DNA from: Escherichia coli
GTDB taxonomy: Bacteria > Pseudomonadota > Gammaproteobacteria > Enterobacterales > Enterobacteriaceae
Assembly (NCBI RefSeq): GCF_044324785.1
Contig: NZ_CP172127.1
DNA: 64,000 nucleotides
Direction: 5' to 3' (one strand)
Shown one piece after another: positions 1 through 6,759 of the stretch; the first letter of the stretch is position 1; the number at the start of each line of letters is the position of its first letter. The notes under the pieces are model-generated. The model was not told the DNA's origin. It did not search any database and worked only from the letters and a program-made list of their open reading frames with translations. The position numbers and the translations under genes were made by a program.

Positions 1-1701
1 CGCCGCCAGTTCGGCATCGCTTACCTGTAACTGAATGCCACGGTTGGGAATGTCGATAGCGATAAGATCGCCGTCTTCAATCAGACCAATGCTGCCGCCG
101 CTTGCCGCTTCCGGCGAGACGTGGCCGATGGAAAGACCAGAGGTGCCGCCGGAGAAGCGTCCGTCGGTGATCAGCGCGCAGGCTTTACCGAGACCCATTG
201 ATTTCAGGAAGCTGGTTGGGTAGAGCATTTCCTGCATCCCCGGACCGCCTTTCGGGCCTTCGTACCGGATCACCACTACATCGCCAGCGACAACTTTGCC
301 GCCGAGAATCGCTTCTACCGCGTCATCCTGGCTTTCGTACACTTTCGCCGGGCCGGTGAATTTGAGGATGCTGTCATCGACGCCCGCGGTTTTAACAATG
401 CAGCCGTTTTCTGCGAAATTACCGTAGAGCACCGCCAAGCCGCCGTCTTTGCTGTAGGCGTATTCCAGCGAGCGGATACAGCCGTTTGCGCGATCGTCAT
501 CGAGAGAATCCCAACGGCAATCCTGCGAGAATGCCTGTGTAGTACGAATGCCAGCAGGGCCTGCGCGGAACATATTTTTAACCGCGTCATCCTGGGTCAG
601 CATAACGTCGTATTGTTCCAGCGTTTGCGGCAACGTCAGGCCAAGCACGTTTTTCACATCACGGTTCAGTAACCCCGCGCGATCCAGTTCGCCAAGAATA
701 CCGATAACACCACCAGCACGATGAACATCTTCCATATGGTATTTCTGGGTGCTCGGCGCAACTTTACACAGCTGTGGAACCTTGCGGGAGAGCTTATCAA
801 TATCACTCATGGTGAAGTCGATTTCCGCTTCCTGCGCCGCCGCCAGCAGGTGAAGTACCGTGTTGGTAGAGCCGCCCATCGCGATATCCAGCGTCATGGC
901 ATTTTCAAACGCCGCTTTGCTAGCAATATTGCGCGGCAGTGCACTTTCGTCGTTTTGCTCGTAGTAACGTTTGGTCAATTCAACAATGCGTTTACCGGCA
1001 TTGAGGAACAGCTGCTTGCGATCGGCGTGGGTCGCCAGCAGCGAGCCGTTGCCCGGCTGCGACAGGCCCAGTGCTTCGGTCAGGCAATTCATAGAGTTAG
1101 CGGTAAACATCCCGGAGCAAGATCCGCAGGTTGGACAGGCGGAACGTTCAACCTGATCGCTCTGGGAGTCAGAAACTTTCGGGTCTGCGCCCTGGATCAT
1201 CGCATCAACCAGATCGAGCTTAATGATCTGATCGGACAGTTTGGTTTTCCCGGCCTCCATCGGACCGCCGGAAACAAAGATCACCGGAATATTCAGGCGC
1301 AGGGAAGCCATCAGCATCCCCGGGGTGATTTTGTCGCAGTTAGAGATGCAGACCATAGCGTCGGCGCAGTGGGCGTTGACCATATATTCAACGGAATCAG
1401 CGATCAGTTCGCGAGATGGCAGTGAATAAAGCATGCCCCCGTGGCCCATAGCGATCCCATCATCCACCGCAATGGTGTTGAACTCTTTGGCAACGCCGCC
1501 AGCCGCTTCAATTTGTTCGGCGACCAGTTTACCGAGATCGCGCAGATGGACGTGACCCGGTACAAATTGGGTGAACGAGTTCACAACCGCGATAATCGGC
1601 TTACCGAAATCGGCGTCGGTCATTCCGGTGGCGCGCCACAGCGCACGAGCACCCGCCATATTACGACCATGAGTGGTGGTGGCGGAACGGTACTTAGGCA
1701 T
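1..1701 (-). CDS. ilvD: dihydroxy-acid dehydratase, 5-prime 567 codons; C-terminal ~49 codons lie beyond the window start
   Basis: Minus-strand translation starts MPKYRSA at complement of 1699-1701 and reads ...VSDAELAA at the window edge; matches remembered IlvD. Not in ORF track because no stop codon within window. Confidence 0.9.
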
Positions 1702-1730
1702 ACTTTATTTACTCCCAGTGTCTGTCTCGT

Positions 1731-1762
1731 AAATGGGACGGTGCGTGCCGTCCCATTTTTTG
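1731..1762 (+). terminator. 10-bp perfect stem-loop plus T-run in the ilvE-ilvD intergenic spacer (terminator-like in + orientation only)
   Basis: aatgggacgg / ccgtcccatt inverted repeat followed by tttttt on the + strand; on the minus (ilv) strand it lacks a U-tract. Confidence 0.35.
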
Positions 1763-1765
1763 TAT

Positions 1766-2695
1766 TTATTGATTAACTTGATCTAACCAGCCCCATTTAT
1801 CTTCGGTTTCGCCAGTGAAGAGGCCGAAGAAGGCTTGCTGAATGCGTTTGGTAACCGGGCCACAACGGCCTTCGCCAACCTGAATACCGTCTACGCTGCG
1901 CACTGGCGTGATTTCTGCCGCCGTACCGGACATAAACACTTCATCCGCCAGATACAGGGATTCGCGCGACAGCACCTGCTCACGCACTTCAATTCCCAGC
2001 TCTTTCGCCAGTTTGATGATGGCGTCACGGGTAATACCCGGCAGCGCGGATGAGGTGAACGGTGGGGTGAACAGCACACCGTCTTTCACTTCAAACAGGT
2101 TTTCGCCTGCGCCTTCAGAGATATAACCGTTCACATCCAGCGCGATACCTTCCTGATAACCGTGGCGGCGCGCTTCGCTACCCACCAGCAGGGAAGAGAG
2201 GTAGTTACCACCGGCTTTTGCCGCCGTCGGGATGGTGTTTGGTGCTGCGCGGTTCCAGGAGGAAACCATCGCATCGATCCCCTGCTCCAGCGCTTCTGCG
2301 CCCAGATACGCTCCCCACGGGAAAGCGGCGATAATTACATCGGTTGAGTATCCCGCTGGCGGGTTAACGCCCATACCAACATCACCGACGAAGATCAGCG
2401 GACGGATATAGGCGCTGGTGAGATTGTTTTTGCGGATCACGTCACGACAAGCTTCCATCAGCTCATCAATGCTCTGCGAAACCGGGAAGCGATAGATTTT
2501 GGCGGAGTCATGCAGACGCTGCATATGCTCACGATGGCGGAATACAACCGGTCCTTTGTGCGAGTCGTAGCAACGGATGCCTTCAAAAACCGAGGTGCCA
2601 TAGTGCAGCGCGTGCGACATCACATGCACCTTCGCGTCTTTCCAGCGAACCATCTCCCCATTGAACCAAATGTAATCAGCTTTCTTCGTGGTCAT
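1766..2695 (-). CDS. ilvE: branched-chain amino acid aminotransferase (309 aa)
   Basis: ORF track 1766..2761; true start MTTKKADYIW at 2695 matches remembered IlvE; upstream extension in the track is spurious. Confidence 0.95.
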   Translation of the reverse strand: MTTKKADYIWFNGEMVRWKDAKVHVMSHALHYGTSVFEGIRCYDSHKGPVVFRHREHMQRLHDSAKIYRFPVSQSIDELMEACRDVIRKNNLTSAYIRPLIFVGDVGMGVNPPAGYSTDVIIAAFPWGAYLGAEALEQGIDAMVSSWNRAAPNTIPTAAKAGGNYLSSLLVGSEARRHGYQEGIALDVNGYISEGAGENLFEVKDGVLFTPPFTSSALPGITRDAIIKLAKELGIEVREQVLSRESLYLADEVFMSGTAAEITPVRSVDGIQVGEGRCGPVTKRIQQAFFGLFTGETEDKWGWLDQVNQ

Positions 2696-2714
2696 TTTTA
2701 TATTCCTTTTGCGC

Positions 2715-2978
2715 TCAGGCGCGGATTTGTTGTGATGTGGTTGTGCTCTGGCAGATGGCAACGTGTGCGACGTCCACCAGTTTATTTAACTGACTAAACA
2801 GTAAGTCGACCGACCGTGGGCTGGCAACGGTCAATTCGATATTTATATTTTGTGCATCGCTGGCGGCAGCCATATTCATTGAGCAGACGTGGAAACCACG
2901 ATGACGCACCACGCGTAAAACACGTTCTAAGGTTTCTGGATTGAAGCGAGCCGATACATTGACCTGATGTTGCATCAT
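2715..2978 (-). CDS. ilvM: acetolactate synthase II small subunit (87 aa)
   Basis: ORF track 87 aa [12 protein letters not shown]...; overlaps ilvG stop by 4 bp as in the ilvGM operon. Confidence 0.93.
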
Positions 2979-4621
2979 GATAATTTCTCCAACATTTCTG
3001 AATTACTGGCACCAGGCGGCACCAGCGGCCAGACATTCTCAAGTTCGTCGATTGAGACATGAAGCAGGTATGGCCCATCACTGTTCAGCATGGTGTCGAG
3101 TGCCGCTTCAACCTGGTCTTTACGGGTGATGTGTTGGCCAGGGATGCCGAAGGCGCTGGCTAACATGAGGAAATCGGGGTTATCAGTAAGGGTGGTTTCG
3201 CTGTATCGTTCCTGAAAAAACAGTTGCTGCCATTGTCGAACCATCCCTAACCGTTGGTTATCGAGTAAGACGATTTTCAACGGTAACTGCTTGCGTTTTA
3301 CGGTGCCCAGCTCTTGCACATTCATCATGAAAGAGCCGTCACCGGAGATACAGACGACGGTATCGTTCGGTCGCGCGACTTGTGCGCCAACCGCCGCTGG
3401 TAAACCAAAACCCATGGTGCCTAAGCCGCTAGAGGTGATGAAATTTTCCGGGCGAGTGTGGGCGATGTGCTGCGCAGCCCACATCTGGTGCTGCCCCACA
3501 TCTGTGGTCACGACGCAATCCGCAGGTTTACGATCCGACAGTTGTTTTAACAACAACGGCGCGTAGATAGCGTCACCGGGATGGTCGTAACGCCAGGAAT
3601 GTTCATCACGCAGCTGCGCGCAGTGTTGCTGCCAGTCATTGATATTTAACGGCTGCTGTAATGCTGGTAACAGAGCATTTAAATCGCCTTGTAATGCCAC
3701 ATGTGCCTGACGCAGCTTGTTCATTTCTGCCGGGTCGATATCCATATGGATAACACTGGCGTGTGGTGCGAAGGTGTTCAGTTTGCCGGTCACCCGGTCA
3801 TCAAAACGTGCACCCACGGCGATCAGCAAGTCGCACTCCTGCACCGCGAAGTTCGCCGCTTTGGTGCCATGCATTCCCAGCATGCCCAGATAGTACGGAT
3901 AATCTGCTTCAACTGCGCCCAGCCCTTTCAGCGTGCAGGTGGCAGGCATTTTTGTGGTAGCGAGAAATTCTCGTAAAGCAGGAACTGCCTGCGCCATACC
4001 TACGCCCCCGCCAACGTACAGCATCGGTTTTTGCGCTTTTGCCAGCATCTGGCGCGCTTGCTCAACTTCGGCATGTGGGAAAGTCACTTCGTTTTCAACG
4101 GTGGTGAACCACGGTTCCAGGTCACCGCTGGCTAGCTGGATATCTTTTGGGATATCGACCAGAACCGGACCAGGACGACCTGAGCTGGCAACGTCGAATG
4201 CTTCAGCCATAATGCGCGGCAACTCTTCAAGCGACTGCACCAGAAAGCTGTGCTTGGTACAGGCTAACGACAATCCCAGGACATCCACTTCCTGAAATGC
4301 GTCAGTGCCGATAAACGGTGCGGACACTTGACCGGTGATGGCAACAACAGGGATGGAATCTAACAGTGCGTCCGCAAGCCCGGTTATCAGGTTGGTTGCG
4401 CCCGGACCAGACGTGGCGATACATACGCCAGTTTTGCCGGTAGCACGGGCATAACCGATAACCGCCATTGCCGCACCCTGCTCATGTCGGCACAGCAAGT
4501 GCTCCACGCCGCCGTCATACAATGCATCGTAAACCGGCATAATTGCGCCACCCGGATAACCGAAAACGGTATTCACACCCTGTGCCCGCAACGCATGTAC
4601 CACCCACTGTGCGCCATTCAT
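2975..4621 (-). CDS. ilvG: acetolactate synthase II large subunit, full length 548 aa (not frameshifted)
   Basis: Single uninterrupted 548-aa [28 protein letters not shown]...; TPP-enzyme signature GDG motif region present. Confidence 0.93.
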
Positions 4622-4704
4622 AGTTAGTTCCCCGTCCTGAATCTTGAGAAACAGAATTTTGTGCTGTTATTCATTGTCTGCTCCTCGGTTATGTTTTTAA
4701 GGTC

Positions 4705-4740
4705 AAAAAAAACCCCCGGACCTTTCGGTGCGGGGGTCTT
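4705..4740 (-). terminator. ilvGMEDA attenuator terminator hairpin
   Basis: On minus strand: GC-rich hairpin (gacccccgcaccgaaaggtccgggggt) followed by U-run, located between ilvL stop and ilvG start. Confidence 0.8.
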
Positions 4741-4760
4741 AGTTCGTTAAGGCTTGATCT

Positions 4761-4859
4761 CTAAGCCTTTCCTCGTCCAAGTGCAGCCCCGCACGGTGGG
4801 ATAATAATCACCACCACGCTAATCACGACCAGGCTAATCACTCGTAGAAGGGCTGTCAT
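4761..4859 (-). CDS. ilvL: ilv operon leader peptide (32 aa, Ile/Val/Leu-rich)
   Basis: Minus-strand translation MTALLRVISLVVISVVVIIIPPCGAALGRGKA*; below 60-aa track cutoff, read by hand. Confidence 0.9.
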   Translation of the reverse strand: MTALLRVISLVVISVVVIIIPPCGAALGRGKA

Positions 4860-5211
4860 TTTGTCTTTTCTTGCATCTTGTTCGAAGGAATGCCTAAAGA
4901 GTTACCATAGATTTTGCGAATAGCACAAGATATTTTTTGGCCGATTTTTATGATGCGTTTAATAATTTCAATAGAAATTGTTGTTTTTTAAAAAGAAAAT
5001 AGTGAGTGAAAAAAATTCAATTTCAGTATAAATGTTGTTCCCTTCCTCGTAGTTCATCCTTTGTCCGCTGCATTTTTGCGAGCATCATTCCACCGCCAGA
5101 ACAACTCAACTTCACTTGCACAAATAAACAGGAATCAGCCACTAAAATTCACGAATTAGCGGGCTACAGCAGCGATATCTTATGCACATAATGGTGACTC
5201 AAGGAGGGCTT

Positions 5212-6732
5212 ATGTCACTGTCAATTGTTCATACCCGCGCAGCCCTGGGAGTAAATGCGCCCCCGATCACTGTTGAGGTACATATCAGTAAAGGTCTACC
5301 CGGCTTAACGATGGTGGGCTTACCAGAAACAACGGTAAAAGAAGCTCGCGATCACGTGCGCAGCGCCATTATCAATAGCGGATATGAATATCCGGCGAAA
5401 AAAATCACCATCAACCTGGCTCCAGCCGATCTGCCAAAAGAAGGGGGACGATATGATTTACCTATCGCCATTGCGTTGCTGGCGGCCTCAGAACAGCTTA
5501 CAGCCAATAAGTTAGATGAATATGAATTAGTCGGAGAACTGGCGCTTACAGGCGCTCTGCGTGGCGTTCCCGGCGCAATTTCCAGTGCAACTGAAGCTAT
5601 TAAGGCAGGTAGAAAAATTATCGTCGCGAAAGATAACGAAGATGAAGTGGGGCTAATTAACGGTGAAGGATGCCTGATAGCCGATCATCTGCAAGCTGTC
5701 TGTGCGTTTCTGGAAGGTAAGCACACTCTCGAACGCCCGAAACCAACTGATGCAATATCCCGGGCGCTACAACATGATCTCAGTGATGTTGTCGGTCAGG
5801 AGCAAGGAAAGCGAGGACTGGAAATTACCGCCGCTGGTGGGCACAACCTTTTACTGATTGGACCGCCGGGGACAGGTAAAACAATGCTCGCCAGCCGTAT
5901 TAATGGCCTGTTGCCAGATTTAAGCAATGAAGAGGCACTGGAGAGCGCTGCGATATTAAGTCTGGTAAATGCTGAATCAGTACAAAAACAATGGCGGCAG
6001 CGCCCGTTCCGCTCACCTCATCACAGTGCGTCGTTAACTGCGATGGTGGGCGGTGGTGCAATTCCAGGGCCAGGTGAAATTTCGCTGGCGCATAACGGCG
6101 TGCTTTTTCTTGATGAGTTACCTGAATTTGAACGGCGTACACTGGATGCCTTGCGAGAGCCGATTGAATCCGGGCAGATCCATCTTTCACGCACACGAGC
6201 AAAAATAACCTATCCAGCCCGTTTCCAGCTTGTCGCGGCGATGAATCCCAGCCCTACCGGACATTATCAGGGAAACCATAACCGCTGCACGCCAGAACAG
6301 ACATTACGTTATCTCAACCGGCTCTCGGGGCCCTTTCTCGACCGCTTCGATCTCTCACTGGAGATCCCATTACCACCCCCCGGCATTTTGAGTAAAACGG
6401 TAGTGCCGGGAGAAAGCAGCGCCACCGTTAAACAACGCGTAATGGCCGCCAGAGAGCGCCAATTTAAGCGGCAGAATAAACTGAACGCCTGGCTGGATAG
6501 TCCGGAAATACGCCAATTCTGCAAACTTGAGAGCGAAGATGCGATGTGGTTGGAAGGAACACTGATCCATCTGGGGTTATCGATTCGTGCCTGGCAGCGG
6601 TTATTGAAAGTTGCACGAACCATTGCTGATATTGATCAGTCTGACATTATCACACGTCAGCATTTGCAGGAGGCAGTTAGCTATCGTGCGATTGACCGTT
6701 TGCTCATCCATCTGCAAAAACTACTGACATAA
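5212..6732 (+). CDS. comM: Mg-chelatase-like AAA+ ATPase ComM/YifB (506 aa)
   Basis: ORF track 5182..6732; likely start ATG 5212 preceded by aaggaggg; Walker A GPPGTGKT present. Confidence 0.9.
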   Translation: MSLSIVHTRAALGVNAPPITVEVHISKGLPGLTMVGLPETTVKEARDHVRSAIINSGYEYPAKKITINLAPADLPKEGGRYDLPIAIALLAASEQLTANKLDEYELVGELALTGALRGVPGAISSATEAIKAGRKIIVAKDNEDEVGLINGEGCLIADHLQAVCAFLEGKHTLERPKPTDAISRALQHDLSDVVGQEQGKRGLEITAAGGHNLLLIGPPGTGKTMLASRINGLLPDLSNEEALESAAILSLVNAESVQKQWRQRPFRSPHHSASLTAMVGGGAIPGPGEISLAHNGVLFLDELPEFERRTLDALREPIESGQIHLSRTRAKITYPARFQLVAAMNPSPTGHYQGNHNRCTPEQTLRYLNRLSGPFLDRFDLSLEIPLPPPGILSKTVVPGESSATVKQRVMAARERQFKRQNKLNAWLDSPEIRQFCKLESEDAMWLEGTLIHLGLSIRAWQRLLKVARTIADIDQSDIITRQHLQEAVSYRAIDRLLIHLQKLLT

Positions 6733-6759
6733 AAAAAGGGCATTTCGCCCTTTTTATTA
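6731..6759. terminator. bidirectional intrinsic terminator between convergent comM and yifE
   Basis: aaaaaaagggcatttcgccctttttatt: hairpin flanked by A-run and T-run. Confidence 0.7.

What the first reader, a model, noticed from the sequence alone, without database searches (positions are those of the whole stretch)
1731..1762. Perfect 10-bp hairpin in the ilvE-ilvD spacer oriented as a terminator for the antisense strand
aatgggacgg...ccgtcccatt followed by tttttt reads as an intrinsic terminator only on the + strand, antisense to the ilv operon, while on the operon strand it is a hairpin without a U-tract. It could block antisense transcription entering ilvE, or act as an RNA processing or stability element between ilvE and ilvD.
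Basis: seen in the sequence. Interest (0 to 1): 0.2.

Follow-up and report, generated by a model that had tools for sequence, protein, structure and literature searches.

The report
Conserved RNA hairpin between ilvE and ilvD
The hairpin is real and has been kept by compensating mutations across the enterobacteria, but mainly as a structure in the ilv operon's own messenger RNA; its look of a terminator for the opposite strand is a feature of E. coli and a few relatives only.

Summary
Window 1731-1741 and 1748-1758 form a perfect 11-bp inverted repeat in the 64-nt ilvE-ilvD spacer of an E. coli ilvGMEDA operon on the minus strand. On the + (antisense) strand it is followed by a T-run and is the second most terminator-like site in the 64 kb.

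Comparison of 92 Enterobacterales loci changes the reading. A stable hairpin sits in this spacer in all 11 Enterobacterales outgroups and 72 of 80 Enterobacteriaceae. In the other 8 an ERIC repeat, which also folds into a long hairpin, replaces it. Nine of 11 stem pairs show compensatory changes. The U-tract is not conserved on either strand. Single-sided stem changes are nearly all G·U on the operon strand, which would be C·A mismatches on the antisense strand. Selection therefore acts on the sense-strand RNA.

The stem ends 5 nt upstream of GACAGAC, the published GcvB sRNA site that represses ilvD. Nanopore data list a sense-strand 3' end after ilvE in Dickeya. E. coli Term-seq lists none on either strand.

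Best reading (about 0.45): an intercistronic mRNA hairpin that acts as an exonuclease barrier or segment boundary. The antisense terminator role is secondary and lineage-specific. This is a new member of a known kind, of modest interest.

The parts
1731..1758 (-). Intercistronic hairpin. On the operon strand the 5' arm is 1758-1748 (AAAUGGGACGG), the loop is 1747-1742 (CACGCA) and the 3' arm is 1741-1731 (CCGUCCCAUUU).
   Evidence: Covariation is shown. The CM search hit all 72 non-ERIC Enterobacteriaceae loci on the sense strand.
1759..1765 (-). A-rich linker (AUACAAA on the operon strand) between the ilvE stop codon and the stem. Together with the three outer stem A's it is the complement of the + strand T-tract.
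   Evidence: The linker is A/U-rich in most species, but a contiguous run of 4 or more is present in only 22 of 62.
1756..1768 (+). T-rich tail (TTTTTTGTATTTA) that makes the + strand reading a canonical intrinsic-terminator shape.
   Evidence: top terminator-like site in 1-6000. (d = 54.1, second best in the window).
1766..1768 (-). ilvE stop codon (UAA), 7 nt upstream of the stem.
1720..1726 (-). GACAGAC motif (-25 to -19 from the ilvD AUG), complementary to GcvB nt 156-162 (GUCUGUC). It lies 4 unpaired nt downstream of the stem.
   Evidence: PMC9299463 reports the compensatory pair ilvD C-19G / GcvB G156C. GUCUGUC starts at GcvB nt 156. The motif is nearly invariant in alignment A1.
1712..1716 (-). 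ilvD Shine-Dalgarno sequence GGGAG (-15 to -11).
   Evidence: GGAGT is invariant in A1.
1699..1701 (-). ilvD start codon.

Best explanation
The element is a structured RNA module of the ilvGMEDA messenger on the operon (minus) strand. It is a stable stand-alone hairpin in the ilvE-ilvD spacer.

Proposed mechanism. The hairpin marks a boundary between the ilv(G)ME and ilvDA segments of the polycistronic mRNA. When the ilvD leader or coding region is cut, or transcription stops downstream, 3'-to-5' exonucleases trim back and stall at the hairpin. One possible cause of such a cut is repression of ilvD by GcvB/Hfq at the adjacent GACAGAC site. The upstream ilvE-containing segment then outlives the ilvDA segment. 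This is selective RNA processing and stabilisation.

Shown: the structure, its conservation by covariation, selection on the sense strand, its position next to a validated GcvB site, and its replaceability by ERIC hairpins.

Inferred: the exonuclease-barrier or segment-boundary role.

In E. coli and some relatives an A-run upstream of the stem also gives the opposite strand the shape of a strong intrinsic terminator. This probably works as a secondary, lineage-specific safeguard against antisense transcription.
For: Structure. The stem is 11 bp, -18.1 kcal/mol on the sense strand, z = -7.3.

Covariation. In 63 distinct Enterobacteriaceae spacers, 85.5% of cells are paired against 37-50% when the partner columns are slid. 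Nine of 11 pairs change on both sides. The covariation score is 0.267 against 0.161 +/- 0.012 in shuffles, reached by 0 of 500.

Outgroups. Erwinia, Pantoea, Proteus, Morganella, Providencia, Edwardsiella, Budvicia, Serratia, Yersinia and Pectobacterium each carry a GC-rich hairpin of different sequence in the same spacer. In most it ends 21-31 nt before the ilvD AUG. Several families share the stem CAGGYGG/CCRCCUG and the loop UCGUUC.

Strand test. In the inner 8 pairs, 25 cells are G·U on the sense strand. I count at least 12 lineage-distinct occurrences. Seven cells are A·C on the sense strand: one Kosakonia clade event plus a misaligned Mangrovibacter pair.

U-tract. It is not conserved. 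At least 5 T in 8 occurs on the sense strand in 5 of 62 loci and on the antisense strand in 39 of 62. Contiguous runs of 4 or more occur in 6 and 22 of 62. About a third of loci score negative on both strands.

ERIC replacement. In 8 loci an ERIC element folding at about -60 kcal/mol (about -30 for the two shorter inserts) replaces the hairpin and ends 17-25 nt before the AUG. ERICs are reported to alter the stability of flanking mRNA segments (PMC2229807).

Dickeya. Nanopore native RNA-seq lists a sense-strand 3' end within 100 nt downstream of the ilvE stop, at 4594985 (-) (PMC9239193 Table S2D). By my arithmetic on gene lengths this is about 21 nt upstream of the ilvD AUG.

General mechanism. 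It has been shown in E. coli with reporters: a stable stem-loop followed by an RNase E site between two cistrons raises expression of the upstream gene (PMC10667835).

GcvB site. It lies 4 nt after the stem.
Against: No E. coli 3' end is listed at the spacer on either strand in the curated Term-seq tables of PMC7815308. The same sheet also lacks the operon's own terminal terminator, so sensitivity here is low.

No half-life, Northern or nuclease data were available for this site.

The Dickeya sequence could not be fetched. The position of its 3' end relative to a hairpin therefore rests on arithmetic.

The Dickeya TU table kept no internal termination site for the operon, which means less than 15% of the stop signal.

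Kosakonia carries an A·C mismatch on the sense strand.

The near-constant distance to the ilvD AUG would fit a role on the ilvD side equally well, for example a 5' protective hairpin or a platform for Hfq.
Confidence: 0.45

Rival explanations
1. Antisense terminator as the primary function. The hairpin plus its T-run stops RNA polymerase travelling antisense through ilvD before it enters ilvE. This would protect ilvE and ilvM from collisions or antisense RNA.
For: On the + strand the stem has 12 pairs including U·G, -19.1 kcal/mol, and is followed by TTTTTTGTATTT. The score d = 54.1 is second of only six sites with d > 30 in the 64 kb. Another site on that list matches a mapped Term-seq 3' end. 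Antisense transcription does occur in the operon: Rho-dependent termination regions lie on the antisense strand at K-12 3951509 and 3956067. The 51-mer including the A/T-run is identical in 97% of E. coli genomes.
Against: The T-tract is not conserved. Strong antisense sites occur in only about 12 of 61 Enterobacteriaceae loci and are scattered among genera. None is seen in Proteus, Morganella, Serratia, Yersinia or Pectobacterium, yet the hairpin persists in all of them. Stem wobbles fit the sense strand. No promoter-like site lies on the + strand in 1-1730. No antisense 3' end is listed near ilvE or ilvD in Term-seq.
Confidence: 0.15
2. Weak or conditional sense-strand attenuator. The hairpin is a leaky intrinsic terminator that sets a lower level of ilvDA than of ilvGME. 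It may be modulated by the ribosome terminating at the ilvE stop codon 7 nt upstream.
For: Some lineages have a good sense-strand U-tract directly after the stem. Examples are Morganella CCCGCCUGAUUUUUGC, Providencia CCGCCUGUUUUAAAC, L070 CUUUUUGA, L032 UUUUGUAG, and L059 with E. coli ECOR29 UUUUAUUA. E. coli scores marginally positive (d = 9.6). A sense-strand 3' end after ilvE is listed in Dickeya. Terminators placed a few nt after a stop codon are repressed by the translating ribosome (PMC4824070 abstract).
Against: In E. coli only three U follow the GC core, and they are paired in the stem. Then comes ACGAGACAG. At least 5 U in 8 occurs in only 5 of 62 loci, and there is none in Serratia, Yersinia, Pectobacterium, Buttiauxella or Cedecea. 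No E. coli Term-seq 3' end is listed.
Confidence: 0.15
3. Accessory to ilvD translational control. The hairpin is part of the GcvB/Hfq target module, with the upstream A-rich tract as a possible Hfq site. Alternatively it is a 5' protective or insulating structure for the ilvD ribosome-binding site.
For: The stem ends 4 nt before the validated GcvB R3 site. A hairpin end lies 21-31 nt before the AUG in nearly all taxa, whatever the spacer length (59-194 nt). ERIC insertions that spare the hairpin always sit upstream of it. The GACAGAC motif and the hairpin co-occur across Enterobacterales.
Against: In Pectobacterium, Yersinia and Serratia, GACAGAC lies upstream of the hairpin, not downstream, so a fixed geometry is not conserved. 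In Yersinia the hairpin is about 75 nt from the AUG. In silico, deleting the hairpin leaves the accessibility of the SD and the GcvB site unchanged (0.48 against 0.44). No Hfq-binding data were available.
Confidence: 0.12
4. No function. The hairpin is a chance or relict palindrome, for example a remnant or target of a mobile repeat.
For: ERIC elements have inserted next to it or in its place several times. No experimental phenotype is known.
Against: Compensatory changes occur in 9 of 11 pairs, and the hairpin persists across families with unrelated stem sequences. It is single-copy per genome, so it is not a repeat family. The chance expectation is about 1e-4 for this spacer (my arithmetic).
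Confidence: 0.05

Closest known systems
Intercistronic stabilising stem-loops (selective RNA processing and stabilisation). Examples from my own knowledge are the REP hairpins between malE and malF in E. coli and the puf operon hairpins of Rhodobacter. The reporter demonstration is in PMC10667835.
   Same: It is a stable GC-rich hairpin between two cistrons of one operon. It has no adjoining U-tract on the mRNA strand and is conserved as structure rather than sequence. A sense-strand 3' end downstream of the upstream gene is reported in a relative.
   Different: It is single-copy and is not a REP. No nuclease, half-life or stoichiometry data exist for this site. It lies directly beside an sRNA target site.
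Canonical and bidirectional intrinsic (Rho-independent) terminators
   Same: The E. coli + strand has the full hairpin plus T-tract signature and scores among the best sites in the window. An A-run flanks one side and T's the other, as in bidirectional terminators.
   Different: It sits inside an operon and faces against it. The sense-side U-tract is only UUU. No 3' end is mapped in E. coli. The tract is not conserved, while the hairpin is.
ERIC/IRU repeats (127-bp enterobacterial MITE-like elements)
   Same: They occupy the same spacer in other genera, fold into a hairpin in the transcript, and are reported to change the stability of flanking mRNA segments in an orientation-dependent way (PMC2229807).
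   Different: The E. coli hairpin has no sequence similarity to ERIC, is 28 nt rather than 127, and is single-copy.
GcvB/Hfq target sites in amino-acid biosynthesis mRNAs
   Same: The adjacent GACAGAC..GGG is a validated GcvB R3 target that represses ilvD (PMC9299463).
   Different: The hairpin itself is not part of the published pairing. Any role in GcvB action is untested.

Membership tests
Intrinsic terminator, + strand (antisense to the operon) | GC-rich stem-loop immediately followed by a U-rich tract | tested here: met
   The stem has 12 pairs at -19.1 kcal/mol and the tail is TTTTTTGTATTT. The score d = 54.1 is second best in the 64 kb.
Intrinsic terminator, + strand (antisense to the operon) | RNA 3' ends mapped at the U-tract | tested here: not met
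   No 3' end naming ilvE or ilvD appears in any curated Term-seq table of PMC7815308. The sorted list runs from 3950400(+) straight to 3957809(-). Sensitivity for this operon is low.
Intrinsic terminator, + strand (antisense to the operon) | Hairpin and U-tract conserved together in orthologous positions | tested here: not met
   A contiguous T-run of 4 or more occurs in 22 of 62 loci and strong scores in about 12 of 61. It is absent in five other families, although the hairpin is present in them.
Intrinsic terminator, - strand (operon sense) | U-rich tract after the stem | tested here: not met
   In E. coli the sequence is AUUUACGAGACAG, with d = 9.6. At least 5 U in 8 occurs in 5 of 62 loci. 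It is met in Morganella, Providencia and a few others.
Intercistronic stabilising hairpin (selective RNA processing and stabilisation) | Stable stem-loop on the mRNA strand between cistrons, maintained by selection | tested here: met
Intercistronic stabilising hairpin (selective RNA processing and stabilisation) | Sense-strand 3' ends at the base of the hairpin | tested here: inconclusive
   The Dickeya Nanopore table lists a termination site downstream of ilvE, but the Dickeya sequence was not retrieved. None is listed in E. coli Term-seq.
Intercistronic stabilising hairpin (selective RNA processing and stabilisation) | Upstream segment more stable or more abundant than the downstream one, dependent on the hairpin and on 3' exonucleases | not testable with these tools
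   This needs half-life measurements or Northern blots in stem mutants and nuclease mutants.
REP/BIME repeats | Many copies per genome | tested here: not met
   The median is one place per genome in 5424 E. coli genomes.
ERIC/IRU | About 127-bp consensus with terminal inverted repeats | tested here: not met
   The E. coli element is 28 nt with no ERIC core. ERIC-like inserts were recognised by the ERIC primer sequences, recalled from memory, and only in other genera.
Any Rfam 15 family | Covariance-model match | tested here: not met
   No match lies at 1700-1770 even at E <= 10. The only real hit in 1-6000 is RF02744 on the ilvL leader.

The most novel reading that the evidence does not exclude
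The hairpin and the neighbouring GACAGAC motif form a conserved two-part module across Enterobacterales. GcvB/Hfq pairing at GACAGAC triggers cleavage or silencing of the ilvDA segment, while the hairpin caps and preserves the ilv(G)ME segment. One sRNA could then change the enzyme ratio within a single operon. In E. coli the same DNA would also serve as an antisense terminator.
Probability: 0.15. Interest if true: 0.5.

Novelty: new member of a known kind. Interest (0 to 1): 0.3.

Why it matters
ilvGMEDA is a textbook operon. Its known controls are the leader attenuator, internal promoters, Lrp and, more recently, GcvB. A structured element between ilvE and ilvD, conserved by covariation, would add a post-transcriptional boundary inside the operon. 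It could explain how ilvE and ilvDA are expressed discoordinately. It could also matter for strain engineering for valine or isoleucine production, where the ilvE-ilvD junction is often copied or rebuilt. Methodologically, the case shows that a sequence which looks like a perfect terminator on one strand can be under selection on the other strand. The asymmetry between G·U and C·A substitutions in the stem can reveal this.

Tried and rejected
- Rfam scan in evalue mode: nothing at the site.
- Repeat-family idea (REP-like): rejected, because the element is single-copy.
- Insulator idea (the hairpin keeps the ilvD SD open): partition-function folding shows no change on deletion, and complementing the 5' arm lowers SD accessibility only from 0.48 to 0.31. 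A 5-nt match between the 3' arm (UCCCA) and the SD (UGGGA) is not conserved in Buttiauxella or Cedecea, so I dropped it.
- Internal promoter at the hairpin: no promoter-like site on the operon strand near it.
- Full-length RNAduplex of GcvB against the spacer gave a meaningless long duplex. I used only the position of GUCUGUC.
- My first K-12 coordinates for the spacer were wrong by 283 nt. I corrected them from the RefSeq annotation. The Term-seq conclusion now rests on the gene-name search and the sorted list, not on the first number search.
- Supplements were not held for Dar & Sorek 2018, Conway 2014, the 3'-UTR valve paper, the 3'-seq comparison preprint and the GcvB paper. Li 2014 and Huang 1992 are not in the library. 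TERMITe and SRPS supplements had no entry for the site, though they were searched with ilvE/ilvD and the wrong number string.
- The terminator d-score uses the d'Aubenton-Carafa formula recalled from memory with modern energies. A first attempt to use the ilvL attenuator as a positive control failed, because my simple stem finder did not capture it. I replaced that control with a whole-window ranking.

Full report
**What is there.** The window carries an E. coli ilv operon on the minus strand. NCBIfam equivalog models identify four genes: ilvG (2978-4621, intact, 548 aa), ilvM (2718-2978), ilvE (1766-2695) and ilvD (1-1701, running off the window). The 301 nt around the site are 100% identical to many E. 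coli genomes, including K-12 MG1655 derivatives. The ilvE-ilvD spacer is 1702-1765 (64 nt).

Arms 1731-1741 and 1748-1758 are a perfect 11-nt inverted repeat with 6 nt between them. Folded as RNA, the + strand gives 12 pairs (one U·G) with a tetraloop, at -19.1 kcal/mol and z = -5.0. The operon strand gives 11 pairs with the loop CACGCA, at -18.1 kcal/mol and z = -7.3. No shuffle out of 200 folds as well in either case.

**The terminator reading in E. coli.** The simple scan lists the + strand site first among terminator-like sites in 1-6000. I also applied a d'Aubenton-Carafa-type score, using the formula from memory with ViennaRNA energies. The + strand scores 54.1. That is second of only six sites above 30 on both strands of the whole 64 kb. 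Another of those six (6738-6750) coincides with a Term-seq 3' end printed in PMC7815308. The operon strand scores 9.6.

**Comparative evidence.** One genome scan with IlvE returned 80 Enterobacteriaceae loci. Twelve further loci from other groups came through protein look-ups. They cover Erwinia, Pantoea, Proteus, Morganella, Providencia, Edwardsiella, Budvicia, Symbiopectobacterium, Pectobacterium, Yersinia, Serratia and Orbus.

- In 72 of the 80 Enterobacteriaceae loci a covariance model of the spacer finds the element on the operon strand at 39-87 bits.
- On the MAFFT alignment of 63 distinct spacers, the 11-pair helix has 85.5% of cells paired, against 37-50% when the partner columns are slid.
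- Nine of 11 pairs carry changes on both sides. Examples are GGGACGG/CCGTCCC, GGGGCGG/CCGCCCC, GGGATGG/CCATCCC, GCGGATGG/CCGTCCGC and CAGGGCGG/CCGCCCTG.
- The covariation score of 0.267 exceeds all 500 shuffles.
- Ten of the 11 Enterobacterales outgroups have a compact GC-rich hairpin of different sequence in the same spacer, usually ending 21-31 nt before the ilvD AUG.
- Symbiopectobacterium instead has a 254-nt spacer with a large inverted repeat.
- Serratia, Yersinia, Morganella, Providencia, Proteus and Pectobacterium share a CAGGYGG/CCRCCUG stem and a UCGUUC loop, with a C-G to U-A compensatory change between Serratia and Yersinia.
- Orbus, which lies outside the Enterobacterales, has an AT-rich spacer with no such hairpin.

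The hairpin is therefore old, and it is conserved as a structure.

**What is not conserved.** The U-tract is not conserved on either strand. After the GC core, at least 5 T in 8 occurs on the sense strand in 5 of 62 loci and on the antisense strand in 39 of 62. Contiguous runs of four or more occur in 6 and 22 of 62. Strong antisense terminator scores occur in about 12 of 61 loci, scattered among genera. About a third of loci score negative on both strands. Serratia, Yersinia and Pectobacterium have no tract on either side, while Morganella and Providencia have one on the sense side. The conserved feature is therefore the hairpin itself, not intrinsic termination in either direction.

**Which strand is selected.** A G·U wobble on one strand is a C·A mismatch on the other, and each Watson-Crick pair is one transition away from either outcome. 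In the structure-aligned set of 66 distinct rows, the inner eight pairs contain 25 cells with G·U or U·G on the operon strand. These are spread over five pair positions and many genera, including Salmonella arizonae, Kluyvera, Lelliottia, Raoultella, Buttiauxella, Cedecea, Pseudocitrobacter and Pluralibacter. I count at least 12 lineage-distinct occurrences. Seven cells are A·C on the operon strand. Five of them are a single event in the Kosakonia clade, and two come from Mangrovibacter, whose hairpin is a different one forced onto the model. This asymmetry indicates selection on the RNA of the operon strand. It argues against a DNA palindrome for a protein and against an antisense RNA as the conserved function. 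The count was made on an alignment fitted to the structure, and independence was judged by eye, so it is indicative rather than a formal test.

**Replacement by ERIC.** In eight loci the small hairpin is absent and an ERIC-type repeat occupies the spacer. These are several Citrobacter and Enterobacter species, 'Escherichia sp. ESNIH1', Trabulsiella and Enterobacter sp. Bisph1. I recognised the full-length inserts by the ERIC1R and ERIC2 primer sequences, recalled from memory. The full-length inserts fold into a long hairpin of about -60 kcal/mol, and two shorter inserts fold at about -30. All end 17-25 nt before the AUG. In about ten other loci the ERIC lies upstream of the hairpin, which is kept. 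ERICs are co-transcribed and affect the stability of flanking mRNA segments in an orientation-dependent way (review PMC2229807). An unrelated generic hairpin can take the place of this one. That fits a structural, sequence-independent role such as an exonuclease barrier.

**Neighbouring GcvB site.** PMC9299463 shows that the sRNA GcvB represses an ilvD translational fusion through its R3 region. The evidence is the compensatory pair ilvD C-19G / GcvB G156C. In the window, C-19 is the last base of GACAGAC (1720-1726, minus strand). In K-12 GcvB the complementary GUCUGUC starts at nt 156. The motif is nearly invariant in Enterobacteriaceae and begins 5 nt after the stem. In Pectobacterium, Yersinia and Serratia the same motif lies upstream of the hairpin. 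The two elements therefore travel together, but not in a fixed order.

**Experimental 3' ends.** In E. coli, the curated Term-seq tables of PMC7815308 cover LB at two densities and M63 medium. They contain no entry naming ilvE or ilvD. One sorted sheet runs from 3950400(+), the ilvL attenuator, directly to 3957809(-). It therefore contains no 3' end at the spacer on either strand. It also contains none at the operon's own terminal terminator, so sensitivity is poor here. My first number search used wrong coordinates. The correct ones are spacer 3,953,414-3,953,477 and hairpin 3,953,421-3,953,448.

The same paper lists Rho-dependent termination regions on the antisense strand at 3951509 (inside ilvG, about window 3670) and 3956067 (inside ilvA). 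Antisense transcription therefore exists in the operon.

In Dickeya dadantii 3937, Table S2D of PMC9239193 gives putative termination sites from Nanopore native RNA-seq within 100 nt after stop codons. It lists '4594985 - ilvE' on the operon strand. From the TU coordinates and typical gene lengths I estimate that this is about 21 nt before the ilvD AUG, which is where the hairpins end in relatives. I could not fetch the Dickeya sequence to check this.

**Mechanism.** The best-supported reading is an intercistronic hairpin of the ilv mRNA that serves as a segment boundary. It would stall 3' exonucleases and so protect the ilvE-containing part when the ilvDA part is cut or silenced, possibly under GcvB/Hfq control. 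The general mechanism has been demonstrated with reporters in E. coli (PMC10667835). For this site it is inference.

Alternatives that remain open:
- a leaky sense-strand attenuator, which is plausible in lineages that have a sense U-tract;
- a role in GcvB/Hfq action or in protecting the ilvD 5' end;
- in E. coli, a working antisense terminator as an added, lineage-specific function.

In silico, the hairpin does not change the accessibility of the ilvD SD or the GcvB site. The element is not in Rfam 15. It is not a repeat family. The searchable literature does not mention it.

**Verdict.** The feature is real and non-random, and it is conserved by covariation across Enterobacterales. Of the two interpretations offered, the RNA stability or processing element is the better supported. 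The antisense terminator is a plausible secondary property in E. coli and some relatives. It is a new member of a known kind of element, of modest interest (0.3).

Noticed in passing
window 2978-4621 (-): ilvG is an intact 548-aa ORF here, whereas K-12 MG1655 annotates ilvG as a pseudogene. The window is therefore not the K-12 ilvG frameshift allele, although the ilvE-ilvD junction is identical to K-12.
   Followed up: partly
window 4641-4930 (-): Rfam RF02744 ('Rev39 5' UTR', described from soft-rot Enterobacteriaceae) matches the ilvL leader/attenuator region at 157 bits, full length. That family appears to be the ilv leader.
   Followed up: no
L003, L004, L006, L013, L014, L020, L021, L039, L040, L080, L088 (ERIC upstream of the hairpin); L024, L031, L033, L044, L046, L048, L053, L067 (ERIC in place of the hairpin): The ilvE-ilvD spacer has repeatedly received ERIC-type repeats. 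The orientation differs between the loci that keep the hairpin and those that lost it.
   Followed up: partly
L090 (E. coli ECOR29, NZ_CP197071.1 4752096-4752438): ECOR29 carries a spacer identical to that of Pseudocitrobacter (L059/L065), and its flanking ilvE and ilvD codons are divergent. This suggests that the ilv region was imported by recombination.
   Followed up: partly
L091 (Pectobacterium), L092 (Yersinia), L093 (Serratia) spacers compared with window 1720-1726: The GcvB-complementary GACAGAC motif lies upstream of the hairpin in these families but downstream of it in Enterobacteriaceae. In the former it is 45 nt or more from the AUG, so GcvB could not act there by simply masking the SD.
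   Followed up: no
window 2821-2849 (+) and about 3670 (+): A promoter-like site antisense within ilvM lies about 800 nt upstream of a published Rho-dependent termination region on the antisense strand (K-12 3951509). This may be an antisense transcript over ilvM and ilvG that starts downstream of the hairpin and is independent of it.
   Followed up: no
L086 (Symbiopectobacterium), spacer 2128-2381: The spacer is 254 nt and contains a large inverted repeat (about -69 kcal/mol, MITE-like). ilvG is split into fragments, which suggests decay of the operon in this symbiont.
   Followed up: no
L096 (E. coli MB64): The one sampled E. coli variant of the 51-mer has its single change in the loop (CACGCA to CACTCA), not in the stem.
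   Followed up: partly
PMC9239193 Table S2D: Dickeya also shows a Nanopore 3' end assigned to ilvD (4593058). By arithmetic this falls inside ilvA, shortly after the ilvD stop.
   Followed up: no
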